Origin: Chiloscyllium plagiosum
Lineage: Eukaryota
Assembly (NCBI RefSeq): GCF_004010195.1
Contig: NC_057737.1
Location: 29,994,875 to 30,058,874, forward strand
Direction: 5' to 3'
Length of the DNA: 64,000 nucleotides
Positions 1 through 60,435 of this stretch are shown piece after piece. Position numbers and translations under genes: made by a program. The notes below the pieces were generated by a model that saw only the letters and a list, made by a program, of their open reading frames with translations, ran no database searches and was not told the origin of the DNA. The stretch's first letter is position 1. Each line of letters begins with the position of its first letter.

Positions 1-156
1 CAGTTTCTTGAATGTGGATTATCCTCAAGTGCTTCAGTGTGATAGAGTCATAGAGATGTACAGCACGGCAACAGACCCTTCGGTCCAACTCTTCCATGCC
101 GACCAGATATCCCAACCCAATCTAGTCCCACCTGCCAGCACCTGGTCCATATCCCT

Positions 157-389
157 TAAAGCTGAAAATGTGTTGCTGGAACAGCACAGCAGGTCAGGCA
201 GCATCCAGGGAACAGGAGAATCAATGTTTCGGGCATAAGCCCTTCTTCAGAAATGCCAAGGTTCCTGAAGAAGGGCTTATGCCCGAAACGTCGATTCTCC
301 TGTTCCCTGGATGCTGCCTGACCTGCTGTGCTGTTCCAGCAACACATTTTCAGCTCTGATCTCCAGCATCTGCAGACCTCACTTTCTCC
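157..389 (+). mobile_element. Penelope-like element (PLE) terminal-repeat hairpin insertion, family A
   Basis: Inverted arms of about 90 bp (161-250 and 265-354), plus a 3' extension (TCTGATCTCCAGCATCTGCAGACCTCACTTTCTCC). Flanked by the direct repeat CCATATCCCT (147-156 / 388-397), which is single in the uninterrupted CR1 copy near 58588. Confidence 0.8.
265..292 (+). ncRNA. Minimal hammerhead ribozyme core (putative)
   Basis: CTGAAGA-A-GGGC-TTAT-GCCC-GAAA-CG-TC gives the CUGANGA box, stem II, GAAA, a palindromic ACGT mini-stem III and a GUC cleavage triplet. Stem I pairing is weak. Confidence 0.55.
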
Positions 390-1028
390 ATATCCCTGCA
401 ACCCTTCCTATTCATATACCCATCCAGGTGCCTTTTAAATGTTGCAATTGTACCAGCCTCCACCACTTCCTTTGGCGGCTCATTCCATACATGTACCAGT
501 CTGAGTGAAAACGTTGCCCCTTAGGTCTCTTTTACATGTTTCCCCTCTCCCCCTAAACCTATGCCCTCTACTTCTGGACTCCCCACCCCAGGGAAAAGAC
601 TTTGCCTATTTACCCTATCCATGCCCCTTAATTTTATAAACCTTTATAAGGTCACCCCTCAGCCTCTGACGCTCCAGGGAAAACAGCCCCAGCCCATTCG
701 ACCTCTCCATATAGCTCAAATCCTCCAACCTTGGCAACATCCTTGTAAATCTTTTCTGAACCCTTTCAAGTTTCACAACATCTTTCCCATAGGAAGGAGA
801 CCAGAATTGCATGCAGAATTCCAACAGTGGCCTTACCTTGACCTCCCAACCCCTGTACTCAATACTCTGACCAATAAAGGAAAGCATACCAAACGCCTTC
901 TTCACTATCCTATCTACCTGCAACTCCACTTTTAAGGAGCTATGAACCTGCACTCCATGTGAGAATTTATTCAAAAGGTTACTTTCAGCTTTGGTAGAAC
1001 AGAACATCAACCACAACAGGCAAAACCT

Positions 1029-1433
1029 AGTTAAAAATCACACAACACTAGGTTATAGTCCAACAGGTTTATTTGGAAATACAAGCTTTCAGAGAGCTGC
1101 TCCTTTGTCAGGTAGCTAGTGGGGCAGGATCACTTTCCTATGATCCAGCTCTACAAGCTACCTGACAGAGGAGCAGCGTTCCAAAATTTCATACTTCCAA
1201 ATACAGAGGAACCTCGATTATCCGAATGACATGGGCAGGGAGTATTTTGTTCAGATAATCAAATGCTAGATAACACAGTTTAGCCAAGCATCAGGACTGT
1301 TGTTCGAATAATCTGAAATTCAGATAATTTAATGCCTGACAATCAAAGTTACTCTGTAAACCTATTAGACAATAACCTAGTGTTATGTGATTTTAATTTT
1401 GTCCACCCCAGTCCAACACTGGCACCTCCACAT
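1029..1433 (+). mobile_element. PLE terminal-repeat hairpin insertion, family B (degenerate), with a nested MITE
   Basis: Left arm 1033-1117 (AAAATCACACAACACTAGGTTATAGTCCAACAGGTTTATTTGGAA..) is the reverse complement of 1156-1203 plus 1359-1394. Flanking direct repeat CAGG(C/A)AAAACCT at 1017-1028 / 1434-1445. Confidence 0.7.
1204..1356. mobile_element. Tc1/mariner-pogo (Tigger-like) MITE
   Basis: TIRs CAGAGGAACCTCGATT / AATCAAAGTTACTCTG with a TA target duplication (1202-1203, 1357-1358). Removing it restores TTCCAAATAAACCT, the complement of the host hairpin's left arm. Confidence 0.8.
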
Positions 1434-7542: not shown

Positions 7543-8907
7543 TATAGAGTCATAGTATCAGAGTTGTACAGTATGGAAACAAGCCATTCGGTCCAAATCA
7601 TCCATGCTGACCAGATATTCTAAATTAACCTTCTCTCATTTGCCAACATTTGGCACAGATCCCTCTAAACCTTCCTATTCATGTATCCATCCAGATGCCT
7701 CTTCAATGTTATAATTGTACCAGCCTCCACCATTTCCTCTGGCAGCCCATTCCATACATGCATCATCCTCTGCATGAAAATGTTGCCACATTAGTCCATT
7801 TTAAATCTTTCCCCTCTCATCTTAAACCTACTACTCTTTTGGACTCTCCTACACCAGGGAAGAAACTTAGGCTATTCACCCTTTCCATGCCCCTGATGAC
7901 TTTATAAACCTCCGATGCTCCAGGGAAAATAGTTCCAGCCTATTCAACTTCTCCCTATAGCTTAAACCCTCCAACCCCAGCAACAACCTTGTAAATATTT
8001 TCCAAACCCTTTCAAGTTTAATAACATATTTCCGACAGCAGGAAGACCAGATGTGCACACACTATTTCAAACGTGGCCTAACCAATGTCCTGTACAACAT
8101 GATATCCCAACTCGTACTCTCAATGCAGTATGCATAAAGTCAAGCATACCAACTTCTTTCTTCACTACACTGTCCACCTGCGACTCCACTTTCAAGGAAC
8201 TATGAGCCTGCACCCAAGATCTATTTGTTTGGCAACACTCCCCAGGACGTTACCCTTATGTATAGAAGTCCTGCCCTGATTTGCCTTACCAAAATGCAAC
8301 ACGTCAAGTTTATCTAAATTAAATTCCATCTGCCACTCCTCAGCCCATCTGATCAAGGTCCTCTTGTCCTCTGGGATAACCTCCTTCGCTGTCCACTATC
8401 CCTCCAATTTGGTGTGATCTGCAAACTTACTGACAATACCTCCTGTGTTCATATCCAAATCATTTTATATAAAAAATGAAAAGCAGTGGACCCAGCACCG
8501 ATCCTTGTGGCACTCCACTGGTCACAGGTCTCCAATCTGAAAAACAACCCTCCACCACAACCCTCTGTCTCCTACCTTTAGGCCAATTTTGTATCCAAAT
8601 GGCTCGCTTTCCCTGAATTCCATGTGATCTAATCTTGCTAACCAGTCTACCATGTAGGACCTTGTCAAATGCTTTGATGAAGTCCATAAAGACAATGTTC
8701 ACCACTCTGCCTTCATCAACCCTCTTTGTCATTTCTTCAAAAACACAATCAAGTTAGTGAGATATGAGCTCCTGTGCAAAAAGCCATGTTGACTTATCCC
8801 TAAGCAGTCCTTGCCTTTCAAATACATGTAACTCCTGTATCTCCGAATCCCCTTCAATACCTTACCCACCACTGATGTCAGGCTTGCCACTCTGTAGTTC
8901 CCGGACT
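7543..8907 (-). mobile_element. CR1 LINE (HER1-like), 3' part
   Basis: Minus ORF 8460..8732 has [28 protein letters not shown] and 7876..8058 has KLERVWKIFTRLL. The tail is at 7543-7580. Confidence 0.92.
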
Positions 8908-10170
8908 TAGGAAGGTGGTGCTGAGTTTGAGGGTTGGGACTGTGACAAGGTGGGGGGAGGGGAAATGAGGAAACTGGAGAAATCTGAGTTCATCCCTTGT
9001 GGTTGGAGGGTTCCTAGGCGGAAGATGAGGCGCTCTTCCTCCAGCCGTCATGTTGCTACGGTCTGGCGATGGAGGAGTCCAAGGACCTGCATGTCCTTGG
9101 TGGAGTGGGACGGGGAGTTGAAGTGTTGAGCCATGGGGTGGTGGGTTGGTTGGTCCGGGTGTCCCAGAAGTGTTCTCTGAAACGTTCCGCAAGTAGGCGG
9201 CCTGTCTCCCCAATGTAGAGGAGGCCACATCGGGTGCAGCGGATGCAGTAAATGATGTGTGTGGAGTGCAGGTGAATTTGTGGCTGATATGGAAGGATCC
9301 CTTGGGGCCTTGGAGGGAAGTAAGGGGGGAGGTGTGGGCGCAAGTTTTGCATTTCTTGCGGTTGCAGGGGAAGGTGCCGGGAGTGGAGGTTGGGTTGGTG
9401 GAGGGCGTGGACCTGACGAGGTAGTCACGGAGGGAGTGGTCTTTTCGGAACGCTGATAGGGGAGGGGAGGGAAATATATNNNNNNNNNNNNNNNNNNNNN
9501 NNNNNNNNNNNNNNNNNNNNNNNNNNNNNNNNNNNNNNNNNNNNNNNNNNNNNNNNNNNNNNNNNNNNNNNNNNNNNNNNNNNNNNNNNNNNNNNNNNNN
9601 NNNNNNNNNNNNNNNNNNNNNNNNNNNNNNNNNNNNNNNNNNNNNNNNNNNNNNNNNNNNNNNNNNNNNNNNCGGTATTGGAACTGGTCCTCCTGGGAGC
9701 AGATGCGGTGGAGACGAAGGAATTGGGAATATGGGATAGCGTTTTTACAGGGGGCAGGGTGGGAGGAGGTGTAGTCTAGGTAGATGTGGGAGTCGGTCAG
9801 TTTATAGTAAATGTCCGTGTTGATTCGGTCGTCCGAGGTAGAAATGGAGAGGTGTAGGAAGGGGAGGGAGGAGTCTGAGACAGTCCAGGTAAAGTTGAGG
9901 TCAGGGTGGAAGGTGTTAGTAAAGTGGATGAACTGTTCAACCTCCTCGTGGGAGCACAAGGCAGCTCCGATACAGTCATCAATGTAGCGGAGGAAAAGGT
10001 GGGGGGTGGTGCCAGTGTAGCTGCGGAAGATGGACTGTTCCACATATCCTATGAAGAGGCAGGCATAGCTGGGGCCCATGCGGGTGCCCATGGCTACTCC
10101 TTTGGTTTGGAGGAAGTGGGAGGATTGGAAAGAGAAGTTGTTCATAGTGAGGACCAGTTCAGTCAGTCAA
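8908..10170 (-). mobile_element. Penelope-like retroelement, probably Neptune clade: RT C-half, Cys-rich linker and GIY-YIG endonuclease, truncated and frameshifted
   Basis: RT motifs GVAMGTRMGPSYACLF, LRYIDD and LPFL..DIYYK.TD. Linker PCNRKKCKTCAH. Endonuclease IIYCIRCTRCGLLYIGETGR.LAERFREH..HF..H, ending LGTLQPQGMN. Contains gap 9480-9672. Confidence 0.92.
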
Positions 10171-10605: not shown

Positions 10606-10702
10606 TAATGGTAGAGCCTTGCTCAACTATGTAGTCTAGATCTGAAAATGTGTTGCTGGAAAAGCGCAGCAGGTCAGGCAGCATCCAGGGAACAGGAGAA
10701 TC

Positions 10703-10730
10703 GACGTTTCGGGCATAAGCCCTTCTTCAG
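10703..10730 (-). ncRNA. Minimal hammerhead ribozyme core (putative), mirror copy
   Basis: GACGTTTCGGGCATAAGCCCTTCTTCAG is the exact reverse complement of the core above. Confidence 0.55.
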
Positions 10731-10748
10731 GAATGAGAGCCCTCATTC

Positions 10749-10776
10749 CTGAAGAAGGGCTTATGCCCGAAACGTC
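10749..10776 (+). ncRNA. Minimal hammerhead ribozyme core (putative)
   Basis: CTGAAGAAGGGCTTATGCCCGAAACGTC, identical to 265-292. Confidence 0.55.
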
Positions 10777-13054
10777 GATTCTCCTGTTCCCTGGATGCTG
10801 CCTGACCTGCTGCGCTTTTCCAGTAACACATTTTCAGCTCCGATATAGTCGAGATGTAGAGCTGATAAAGGGGTTGGATTAACCTATCACTTACTTTAAC
10901 TCTCAGCAGCCACTTTTACAGTATTCAGATTTTCATTTCAGTCCAACTCTAATTAAACTTTGACTTAACAAGTTTGCACAACAATTCCCAGCTCTTTAAA
11001 AGTAACAGTTCACATCGGTACATTTTCACTGTTTGACACCATTGAGTTAGTGCTGTAGAACCATTCAGCACTTGGATTGGTAGTTTTAATTGAGCTTCCA
11101 TTCCTCAATTCCCTGCAGATGAATCAGATCTTTTCAGTTTTTCTTGGGTTTTTTTAACTGCAATTTTGACTTTTACCAGCTTGTAAGAACAGACCATATT
11201 TCCTACTTAGCTCCACTATCGCCATCTTTAACTACATTTATTTAAATTGTCTTCTAAATTGCCATGCTGGAATGTGTAGAAGATAATGGTGTGTCGGTCT
11301 GATTGCAGGCAGTTTTGCAATCCATTGAGACAGACCTGTCTTTCTTTTTAAGCTCAATTTTCTGCAGATTTATAAGAATATGTTCATCACGGAGCCAAGA
11401 AATTCAAGCTGCTCTCGCCTTCAGGTTGATTTTTTGGATTCAGGTCCTGCATTTTGTTAAGTTTAAAAATTATAATCACAATACTCTCACGCAGAACAGT
11501 ACAATATGTAGAAATGTCAAATTTAGAAAGTCTTTTTTTTATCTTCAAAATCCACAAATACAAACGATGTGACGAATCACAGAACTGGATGGGATGCACC
11601 AGTCTCTCTTCTGAGACTGAAGAATTCTGAAAGTGGGGTCTGGATTTTCCCTCTTGGGGATGGGCACCAGGAACCAGGTCTGTTTTACTGTTGGAAACTC
11701 ACCTCATGATGCCTACATGATGCCAGGAGGGCAGCTGTCCTTTCTTTTAACAACAGTATAACTCCTGAAGACATTTCAGAACTTGAGATATCCTGAGTTT
11801 GTGAAAAGGGTTATATAAATGAAAGTCTTTTGTTTTCTGACTGGCTAATGGTTATTGGCTGTTAGTCACTATGGATGTTTAATGATTTGTGGCAGTCTCT
11901 GAAGTAGCACTGTCAGAAACTGTACAGAATTTAGTGCTTACAGTTGGCTGTTGGCAAACATGTCAAACCATTCCAAGATCCTCCTGCACCCAATTTAACG
12001 CCAATCAGACACGACCTAGAAAGCATCAAGGTTGTCACAAAGTCAGAGTAATTTCCTACCTTTGAGAATAGCTGGCCAATCAGAGGCAGATAGCTCGGCA
12101 GTACCCGCAGTGCCATTCAGACAAGTGGCTATGTAGTTCCTGCAATATGTGTAAGCGGCCACTTGAGTGAATGTAAGTGAGGTGGGATTGGGAGCCCTGA
12201 CAATGTGCTGCACGGGTGTGGTGGGGTTATGAGCAGAGTTAACTTTAAGGACAGGCTGGAGGAAGCCCTTTCACACTTCTTCACACTTAGGGAAACCCTT
12301 TCCTCTGCCAAATCTCTCCATGTGAGCTGCCCAAGTAGGAGAGCCTCCCAACCCCATATGTTCCATCATTAGTCTTCAGACATGCTCATCAGGATTCCCC
12401 TGCTGTGTTTTGCCTATATCATGGCTCTGGCTCACTGCTACTTCAATAGCAATGACAGTGGAATGAGACCTTGAAGTGATCTGTTCAAGACCTCACTTGA
12501 CTTCGGAAAGGGACATCTCTCCTTGACCCTTCCTAAGTCAAACTTAACCTACTTCTGGGAAGAGTATTAAATTCTACCAAGTCTCTGTCCCCTCCTTCAC
12601 TGAGTTCTTGATCTCTATTTCATGATTTGAAATGCTGCATAAAATTGTTAATAACAAGAATGAATAATAATTGTTATACAATTCCTGGTAGAATGCTTAA
12701 AGTGATAATTGGAATCCATGTTTGAACTGTTTCTGACTTCTCAGCTGCAGACTTCTAGGCATCCTTGGTAAATGATAGAGATGAAACGTGGAGGAAGGAA
12801 GAAACTATCTGAATGGCTTCCAGAAAAATCAATATATAAAACCAGGACATTGATACTCACAAGCACAGCTCACTGAGAAGTGAAGAGCATCAATGATATG
12901 GATTTTGTATCATCATTTATAACCCGAGGTTTGTATGAGTCCATTGCTTTGGAAACTGGGACTGCCACAAGTGATCTATGTGCCAACAATACGCTTAAAT
13001 TAAAACTCCAACCATTTCAGCAACACATCAACACAACAATTTTGTTAAAGGCTA

Positions 13055-14491: not shown

Positions 14492-14674
14492 GAGAGAGCG
14501 AGAGACAGAGACTGTTGATGTTTGTAACTGAGGGTCACCACACCTCAGGCAAGGGAAGAGGTTGAGAAGGACAATCTTTCATGGCAACCACAGTCAGTGC
14601 GGGAATTGAACCCACACTATAGGATTACACTGCTTTGCAAATCCTACATCCAACCAACTGAGCTAACCAATCCC
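14492..14674 (-). mobile_element. tRNA-derived SINE
   Basis: The minus strand begins GGGATTGGTTAGCTCAGTTGG (A box) and has GGTTCAATTCCC (B box). It ends in a (TC)n-like tail. No cloverleaf or CCA end, so it is not a tRNA gene. Confidence 0.7.
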
Positions 14675-38295: not shown

Positions 38296-38514
38296 GAGGC
38301 AAAAATGAGGACTGCAGATGCTGGAGATCAGTCAAGAGTGTGGTGCTGGAAAAGCACAGCAGTTCAGACAGCATCCAAGGAGCAGGTGAATTGACGTTTC
38401 AGGCAAAAGCAGAATTTGCACCATTCCTGATGAAGGGCTTTTGCCTGAAACATCTATTCTCCTGCTCCTTAGATGCAACTTCACCTGCTGTGCTTTTCCA
38501 GCACCACACTCTCA
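38296..38514 (-). mobile_element. PLE terminal-repeat hairpin insertion (family A-related, older)
   Basis: Arms 38335-38410 / 38437-38513, with a hammerhead-like core CTGATGAAGGGCTTTTGCCTGAAACATC at 38427-38454. Flanks AGATAGTGACA (38285-38295) / AGATCGTGGCA (38515-38525). Confidence 0.75.
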
Positions 38515-58483: not shown

Positions 58484-58953
58484 TAGAGTCAAAGAGATGT
58501 ACAGTATGGAAACAGACCCTTCAGTCCAACCGGTGCATGCCGACCAGCTATCCCAACCCAATCTAGTCCCACCTGCCAGCACCAGGCCCATATCCCTCCA
58601 AACCCTTCCTATTCATATACCCATACAAATGCCTCTTAAATGTTGTAATTGTACCAGCCTCCACCACTTCCTCTGGCAGCTCATTCCATACATGTAACAC
58701 CCTCTGCGTGAAAAAGTTGCCCCTTAGAGGTCCCTTTTATATCTTTCCCCACTCACCCTAAACCTATGCCCTCTAGTTCTGGACTCCCTGACCCAGGGAA
58801 AAGACTTTGCCTATTTACCCTATCCATGCCCCTCATAATTTTATAAACCTCTAGAAGGTCACCCTTCAGCCTCTGACGCTTCAGGGAAAACAGCCCCAGC
58901 CTGTTCAGCCTCTCCCTATAGCTCAAATCCTCCAACCCAGGCAACATTCTTGT
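58484..58953 (-). mobile_element. CR1 LINE (HER1-like) 3' end
   Basis: MLPGLEDLSYRERLNRLGLFSL..RLKGDLLEVYKIMRG. Near-identical to 41-740 without the hairpin insert. Confidence 0.93.
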
Positions 58954-60352: not shown

Positions 60353-60435
60353 CTGAAAATGTGTTGCTGGAAAAGCGCAGCAGGTCAGGCAGCATCCAAG
60401 GAGCAGGAGAATCGACGCATGAGCCCTTCTTCAGG
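60353..60435 (-). mobile_element. Single-arm PLE terminal-repeat insertion, family A
   Basis: CTGAAAATGTGTTGCTGGAAAAGCGCAGCAGGTCAGGCAGCATCC..CCCTTCTTCAGG matches 10642-10731 with a small internal deletion. Flanked by a 16-bp direct repeat. Confidence 0.8.

What the first reader, a model, noticed from the sequence alone, without database searches (positions are those of the whole stretch)
147..397. Hammerhead-bearing hairpin mini-element with a clean target-site duplication
Seen: a 233-bp insert of two ~90-bp inverted arms sits inside a CR1 tail and duplicates CCATATCCCT. The empty site is visible in the sister CR1 near 58588. The right arm starts with CTGAAGA-A-GGGC-TTAT-GCCC-GAAA-CGTC, a minimal hammerhead core. 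Established: Penelope-like elements carry minimal hammerheads in their pseudo-LTRs and often insert with an inverted partial terminal repeat. Inference: five such short inserts here (157, 1029, 10642, 38296, 60353) all have 10-16 bp flanking duplications and no coding sequence. They may be a non-autonomous, retrozyme-like class mobilised in trans by Neptune RT/GIY-YIG, not just random truncations. This is the best candidate for an under-described system in the window.
Basis: partly seen in the sequence, partly recalled or inferred. Interest (0 to 1): 0.7.

Follow-up and report, generated by a model that had tools for sequence, protein, structure and literature searches.

The report
Mirror-image Penelope retrotransposon end stub
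This hairpin is real, but it is one of many thousands of mirror-image stubs of a Penelope-type jumping gene whose joints differ from copy to copy, so it is likely made afresh at each insertion rather than being a new self-spreading element; where the stubs break likely marks where the parent's RNA begins.

Summary
The insert is real: 94-bp inverted arms (97%), a 34-nt one-sided tail, a 10-bp target duplication in a CR1-type LINE, and a minimal hammerhead core. The arm is the 3' end (pseudo-LTR) of an RT + GIY-YIG Penelope-like element; long coding copies show the same head-to-head layout. In 1.16 Mb of random genome, 51 of 167 loci are head-to-head, and 44 of 48 pair one short end with one tail end. 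Junctions are copy-specific (35 kinds in 49 loci); one recurrent junction sits on four sequence variants with the tail on either side, so no hairpin family copies itself. It is not a retrozyme (no tandem units). 5' breaks pile up at the hammerhead's 5' edge (26 of 57 young arms within 22 nt; 9,576 at one base), not at its cut site (668 vs 532 control). Likely mechanism: reverse transcription starts at two internal sites, one per cut DNA strand, runs off the transcript start, and the two copies are joined. The layout is published; the break pile-up was not found in print in seven searches. The scan has noted this often before, on this and other genomes.

The parts
147..156 (+). left copy of target-site duplication CCATATCCCT
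157..159 (.). three extra bases between duplication and left arm
   Evidence: not in the arm's complement
160..253 (-). inverted arm: pLTR copy ending at the short terminus; two CpG-type changes, one at the hammerhead cut triplet
254..261 (.). junction TGCCAAGG: 2 nt continue the left arm, 6 nt match neither arm nor the parent's upstream sequence; unique among the 30 best genome matches
262..355 (+). sense arm: pLTR copy starting one base inside the common 5' break (parent's A at position 261)
265..292 (+). minimal type I hammerhead motif: CUGAAGA 265-271, extra A, 4-bp stem II 273-284, GAAA 285-288, palindromic ACGU, predicted cut after C292
   Evidence: sequence; motif definition PMC4209133; no Rfam hit
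356..389 (+). 34-nt one-sided PLE tail, up to the long terminus
388..397 (+). right copy of the duplication (first CC shared with tail end)
36..156 (-). host repeat, left part (3' region of a CR1-type LINE; family name recalled from the translation)
388..900 (-). host repeat, right part, leading into LINE ORF2 C-terminus
58588..58597 (+). same motif once in a sister repeat: paralogous empty site
8900..10165 (-). broken coding fragment of the parent family: RT end, C-x4-C-x2-C linker, GIY-YIG; stops before the hammerhead
   Evidence: contiguity with the arm in other loci
10638..10844 (.). second head-to-head stub of the same family, both arms at the short terminus
38296..38514 (.). head-to-head stub of an older subfamily (82-84%), tail on the left
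60353..60435 (-). single-arm stub with part of the hammerhead deleted
1034..1432 (.). head-to-head stub of a second pLTR family, decayed core, with an internal insertion

Best explanation
The insert is two copies of the terminal (pseudo-LTR) segment of an RT + GIY-YIG Penelope-like retrotransposon set head to head between a target duplication, likely built in a single insertion event and likely a dead end. Inferred steps: the parent's protein binds RNA that begins at about position 261 (predicted transcription start, at the 5' edge of the hammerhead), makes a staggered cut, and primes reverse transcription from both cut strands at two internal sites of the RNA, one giving the short end and one the tail end. 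Both copies run off the RNA's 5' end after 95-130 nt and are joined end to end, often by microhomology or small insertions; gap filling gives the duplication. Shown: layout, parentage, copy-specific junctions, short+tail asymmetry, break pile-up. About 90% for 'stub made anew at each insertion'; about 60% each for twin priming and for the transcription-start reading.
For: Parent: arm contiguous with ORF end via a ~260-nt UTR in many of 30 GIY-YIG loci, ending at +95 or +128; long copies also head-to-head (L115, L116, L121, L123, L124, L128); the element continues past the tail in L042 and L228, so the tail end is internal to the unit. Random census, 120 stretches, 1,162,291 non-N bases: 167 loci, 103 single, 51 head-to-head, 11 complex, 2 tail-to-tail; 44 of 48 non-edge head-to-head loci are short+long; 105 of 110 in the larger, partly pattern-selected set; young single arms end at either site (11 long, 8 short). 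Duplications found in 102 of 110 (mode 15; overlaps allowed) vs 8 of 110 at 6-8 nt with swapped flanks. Junctions: 35 distinct in 49 loci (counted by eye from the first 100 of 15,796 rows); one junction (86 loci) on four stem-loop variants, tail left 15, right 12, other 3 of 30. Break pile-up: 26 of 57 young arms break at 250-271, 7 in the 250 nt upstream (9 arms dropped for N or edge); 95,026 exact core 19-mers vs 25,345 for a 19-mer 49 nt upstream; 9,576 breaks at 261 vs 668 at the cut site and 532 at a control site. TTAT box at -30/-32 in 55 of 62 UTR-bearing copies and an initiator-like CTCATTCC (motif consensus recalled). Arms share subfamily letters at 1,084 of 1,125 site comparisons (303 mismatches expected if independent), but 10 of 110 hairpins differ at 2 or more such sites (about 2-3 expected from the 2.1% background), which fold-back copying cannot give. 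In vitro precedent: anole PLE protein cuts and extends both strands, starts at two internal sites that bound the tail, and does not need the hammerhead (PMC11167929). A second family repeats the pattern: 12 of 39 loci two-stranded.
Against: No direct evidence for the transcription start: one RNA run covered the element on both strands with no place where many molecules begin, the second raw run laid nothing. The upstream box is shared by descent, so its conservation is weak support. The break-count patterns differ in length (23 vs 31 element bases) and in degeneracy, so ratios are rough. An extra G (cap copy) was seen in only 2 of 13 single-arm copies: inconclusive. High arm concordance fits fold-back copying equally well; diagnostic sites may be mutation hot spots. 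4 of 57 random arms break at 292-294 (about 1 expected), so a minor cut-site class is not excluded. 11 non-CpG and 15 CpG variants shared by both arms (3.7 expected for CpG) point to some inherited variation or conversion.
Confidence: 0.68

Rival explanations
1. Fold-back self-priming: one cDNA (or an antisense template) loops back at its end and is copied into the second arm; the endonuclease or repair then fixes the short end.
For: Proposed for head-to-head pLTR palindromes in PMC3846280 (Discussion). Arms concordant at 1,084 of 1,125 diagnostic comparisons; many junctions use 1-4 nt microhomology.
Against: Single arms also end at the short terminus (8 of 19), so that end exists without a hairpin; 10 of 110 hairpins have arms differing at 2 or more subfamily sites; two internal RT starts shown in vitro.
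Confidence: 0.2
2. The layout is as in the best explanation, but the pile-up at 250-271 reflects an RT stall or favoured microhomology joining at the near-palindromic 5' edge of the hammerhead, not the RNA's 5' end.
For: Breaks spread over about 20 nt; many use AT/GAT microhomology with the target or the other arm; no RNA start seen.
Against: About 70% of arms that reach 272 stop within 22 nt, also in single-arm copies with no partner arm; a stall would be expected on the 3' side of stem II; promoter-like spacing upstream.
Confidence: 0.25
3. One reading: a non-autonomous hammerhead hairpin element (retrozyme-like) that is transcribed and moved as a unit in trans.
For: Very high copy number and fairly uniform size (149-272 bp, median 220, among 110 hairpins with overlapping arms); some junctions recur (9, 5, 2, 2 of 49).
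Against: 31 of 49 junctions are singletons; recurrent junction on four variants with tail on either side; continuum to coding copies; stubs lack the upstream box; the transcript would be a 94-bp duplex (-190.9 kcal/mol vs -142.5 with hammerhead helices forced); retrozymes are defined as tandem units.
Confidence: 0.05
4. Hammerhead self-cleavage makes the template's 5' end and so sets the stub size.
For: Intact motif; 4 of 57 arms break at 292-294; 668 breaks at 293 vs 532 control.
Against: The main pile-up is 30 nt upstream of the cut; hairpins centred on the cut-site palindrome number 16, against 43 for the neighbouring palindrome that a cut RNA would lack; many 293 breaks pair with an arm ending at about 261, whose letters are complementary there; hammerhead mutants insert normally in vitro.
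Confidence: 0.05

Closest known systems
EN+ Penelope-like element insertions with inverted pLTR, one-sided 30-40 bp tail and TSD (Adineta Pen2a/Pen2, PMC3846280; general layout PMC8557442; D. virilis Penelope, PMC2377424)
   Same: Head-to-head pLTRs, one-sided tail (34 nt), target duplication, hammerhead in the pLTR, RT-linker-GIY-YIG parent.
   Different: Here the commonest product has no ORF at all, occurs by the tens of thousands, and both arms usually stop at one site.
Anolis Poseidon PAc in vitro mechanism (PMC11167929)
   Same: Two termini bounding a tail, internal to the unit; cut-site ends not favoured.
   Different: PAc is Penelope/Poseidon clade; this parent has the Zn-finger-like linker of Neptune/Nematis. 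Joining of two products and a 5' run-off site were not described in the parts read; its supplement (Fig. S2) was not seen.
Dispersed minimal hammerheads of metazoan PLEs (PMC4209133)
   Same: Minimal type I core, bulged base before stem II, palindromic loop 3; the paper notes pairs on opposite strands 100-700 bp apart and ascribes dispersed motifs to truncated PLEs.
   Different: Stem II is 4 bp and stem I weak (3 of 4 pairs in the parent, 5 of 6 in this copy thanks to the junction letters); cores here are about 25 bp apart.
Non-LTR retrozymes (bioRxiv 10.64898/2026.07.22.740005)
   Same: Non-coding, type I hammerhead, derived from PLE pLTRs.
   Different: Retrozymes are tandem head-to-tail units; these stubs are head-to-head or single, with copy-specific joints.

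Membership tests
EN+ PLE terminal insertion | sequence is the 3' end of an RT + GIY-YIG ORF unit | tested here: met
   GIY-YIG PF01541 24.5 bits over cut-off 22.6, RVT_1 only 16.7 bits on a fragment
EN+ PLE terminal insertion | inverted 5'-truncated copy at the 5' side | tested here: met
   51 of 167 head-to-head, 2 tail-to-tail
EN+ PLE terminal insertion | 30-40 bp tail on one side | tested here: met
   34 nt here; 44 of 48 random hairpins
EN+ PLE terminal insertion | target-site duplication | tested here: met
   10-11 bp here; 102 of 110 vs 8 of 110 control
Neptune clade | CX2-5CxxC linker between RT and EN (shared with Nematis) | tested here: met
   CNRKKCKTC in window 8878-9744 minus frame; definition PMC8557442
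Neptune clade | RT phylogeny separating Neptune from Nematis | not tested
   no reference PLE proteins on hand
Minimal type I hammerhead | core boxes, stem II, NUH triplet, palindromic loop 3 | tested here: met
   265-292; no Rfam model matches
Minimal type I hammerhead | helix I of 4-5 bp and a fold that can form in context | tested here: inconclusive
   5 of 6 pairs possible in this copy, but the full insert folds as a duplex 48 kcal/mol more stable
Minimal type I hammerhead | self-cleavage | not testable with these tools
   no genomic excess of cut-site hairpins, 16 vs 43
Non-LTR retrozyme | tandem repeat with hammerheads in consecutive units | tested here: not met
   insert is head-to-head; 154 of 167 random loci are single or head-to-head
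Non-LTR retrozyme | circular RNA | not testable with these tools
   one search is uninformative
Non-autonomous element moved as a unit | copies share fixed ends and junction by descent | tested here: not met

The most novel reading that the evidence does not exclude
Shark PLE stubs are a genome-scale fossil record of the PLE integration reaction: a dimeric RT-endonuclease primes both target strands at two fixed internal sites of the 5' pseudo-LTR, and most events end as 'strong-stop' copies that run off the capped transcript start at the hammerhead's 5' edge and are joined head to head. This would explain inverted pLTRs, the one-sided tail and the mass of solo hammerheads in animal genomes by one reaction, with no role for ribozyme cleavage.
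Probability: 0.45. Interest if true: 0.55.

Novelty: new member of a known kind. Interest (0 to 1): 0.32.

Why it matters
The insert itself is ordinary. As a population (95,026 exact young cores; roughly 140 loci per Mb) the stubs make an open question testable: how Penelope-like elements make inverted ends and tails. They give a predicted transcription start, two priming sites and a strict short+tail pairing that can be checked by cap mapping and in vitro. They also warn annotators: these hairpins mimic MITEs and microRNA precursors (sub-threshold Rfam miRNA hits).

Tried and rejected
Rfam scans found no hammerhead: the models do not cover this minimal form. A DNA search of the genome with the 95-base tail returned nothing, because very common words are skipped; not absence. 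Run search listed no holder on record as RNA; laying 4 of 24 runs gave both-strand coverage in one raw RNA run, none in the other, and no start sites: no evidence on expression or start. A pattern meant to list 40 bases of upstream context could not be run, so the fine survival curve rests on 57 sampled arms and on pattern counts. Cap-derived G: 31 G, 24 A, 9 T before position 261 among 64 of 100 listed rows after removing 36 hairpin-type rows, but mostly target- or arm-derived on inspection: inconclusive. A hairpin master for the recurrent GG junction was rejected. Cut-site origin rejected as main route. No intact full-length parent was recovered among 20 ten-kb stretches; long copies have assembly gaps. 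The first breakpoint mapping had a wrong offset and was redone.

Full report
Observation. The window holds inverted arms at 160-253 and 262-355 (94 nt, 97% complementary, 8 nt apart), followed by 34 unpaired bases (356-389). CCATATCCCT flanks the insert at 147-156 and 388-397. Both flanks match four sister repeats in the window and the sister at 58588 carries the motif once; the host reads as the 3' part of a CR1-type LINE (translation; family name recalled). A minimal hammerhead motif lies at 265-292; Rfam has no matching model hit.

Parent. The window has a broken coding fragment at 8900-10165 (minus) with an RT end, a C-x4-C-x2-C linker and a GIY-YIG domain. In loci found with this domain (30 fetched of 150 scored), the ORF end runs through a 260-nt UTR into the arm, ending after 95 or 128 bases. 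Several long copies are themselves head-to-head, one side with and one without the tail. Two loci continue past the tail into further element sequence, so both ends are internal points of the unit. The linker fits Neptune or Nematis (PMC8557442, passages); no tree was made.

Census. In 120 stretches of 10 kb taken at fixed positions (1,162,291 non-N bases) there are 167 loci: 103 single arms, 51 head-to-head, 11 complex, 2 tail-to-tail; extrapolated, about half a million loci over all subfamilies (rough). 44 of 48 non-edge head-to-head loci pair a short end with a tail end; 105 of 110 in a larger set that includes pattern-selected loci. Duplications were found in 102 of 110 (mode 15 bp with overlaps allowed) against 8 of 110, all 6-8 nt, with swapped flanks. 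Exact young cores number 95,026; core-to-core hairpins with at most 30 bases between give 7,898 matches.

Is it a self-copying hairpin? No. The first 49 loci show 35 junctions (9, 5, 2, 2 and 31 singletons; counted by eye). One asymmetric junction found 86 times sits, in the 30 loci read, on four stem-loop variants, with the tail on the left in 15 and on the right in 12 (3 unclear); descent from one hairpin would fix both. This insert's own junction is unique among the 30 best matches. The insert's RNA folds into one long duplex (-190.9 kcal/mol; -142.5 with hammerhead helices forced). Retrozymes are defined by tandem units (bioRxiv 10.64898/2026.07.22.740005, parts 1-2 of 5 and a term search; supplements not seen).

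Where the arms break. 26 of 57 young arms (9 dropped for N or edge) break at window-equivalent 250-271, 7 in the 250 bases upstream, 4 further up, 20 downstream. Genome-wide, a 19-mer 49 bases upstream of the core is found 25,345 times against 95,026. Breaks at 261 number 9,576; at the predicted cut site 668; at a control site 532 (pattern lengths differ, so the ratio is approximate). Hairpins centred on the cut-site palindrome are fewer (16) than those on the neighbouring palindrome (43). Position 261 is the first base of helix I and the A of an initiator-like CTCATTCC, with TTAT at -30 or -32 in 55 of 62 copies that keep the UTR (promoter consensus recalled). D. virilis Penelope starts transcription inside its pseudo-LTR (PMC2377424, passages). 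RNA reads showed no start site, and a cap-derived G is unproven. The start-site reading is therefore an inference.

Mechanism. The anole PLE protein cuts and extends both target strands, starts reverse transcription at two internal sites that bound the tail, is predicted to be a dimer, and inserts normally with a dead hammerhead (PMC11167929, parts 1-2 of 4; supplement not seen, and its Fig. S2 may bear on the break pile-up). Applied here: one strand primes at the short site, the other at the tail site; both copies run off the RNA's 5' end and are joined. Arms agree at 1,084 of 1,125 subfamily-site comparisons (303 mismatches expected if drawn independently), so usually one source serves both; 10 of 110 hairpins differ at two or more sites, against about 2-3 expected, which favours two primings over fold-back (hot spots could inflate this). 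Fold-back self-priming (PMC3846280, passages and Discussion) remains the main rival. A second family shows the same layout in 12 of 39 loci.

Known or new. Inverted pLTR plus tail plus duplication is the described layout of EN+ PLE insertions (PMC8969392 passages), and opposite-strand pairs of minimal hammerheads from truncated PLEs were noted in PMC4209133 (parts 1-2 of 4). Seven searches (listings only, except the papers named) found no paper on these shark stubs or on a 5' break pile-up; subscription journals and repeat databases were not covered. The scan's own notes hold 294 findings with these words in at least 24 genomes; most of the eight shown agree, two claim cut-site evidence that my counts in this genome do not support.

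Verdict. Real, a new member of a known kind; the proposed new class is not supported. Interest 0.32, resting on the population statistics rather than the insert.

Noticed in passing
window 1034-1432; L033:6974-7177, L039:3154-3353, L057:8928-9132 and others: A second pLTR family with a different hammerhead (5-7 bp stem II) forms the same short+tail hairpins centred near the core's 5' edge; 12 of 39 random loci are two-stranded.
   Followed up: partly
L228 and L042:3521 onward: Element sequence continuing past the tail; a plausible ORF start lies about 40 bases beyond the tail end. L228 is a nest of two subfamilies inserted into each other.
   Followed up: partly
junctions listed; L012, L053:5728-5947, L073:6289-6511: Many joints carry short insertions copied from the nearby arm, as in polymerase-theta-type end joining (recalled resemblance).
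   Followed up: no
L272, L304, L030, L233: Hairpins whose two arms differ at both of two linked subfamily sites; candidates for two-template events or patchy repair.
   Followed up: partly
window 254-261: The junction letters happen to extend hammerhead helix I to 5 of 6 pairs, better than in the parent; GG before the arm recurs in other copies and is not in the parent.
   Followed up: partly
window 14591-14672 (minus): tRNA-like match at the Rfam threshold, probably a SINE head.
   Followed up: no
window 1204-1350: Unrelated repeat with 69-bp spaced direct copies inserted in the second-family stub.
   Followed up: no
L121, L123, L124, L125, L128: Long head-to-head copies have assembly gaps at their centres, so long inverted insertions are probably under-assembled.
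   Followed up: no
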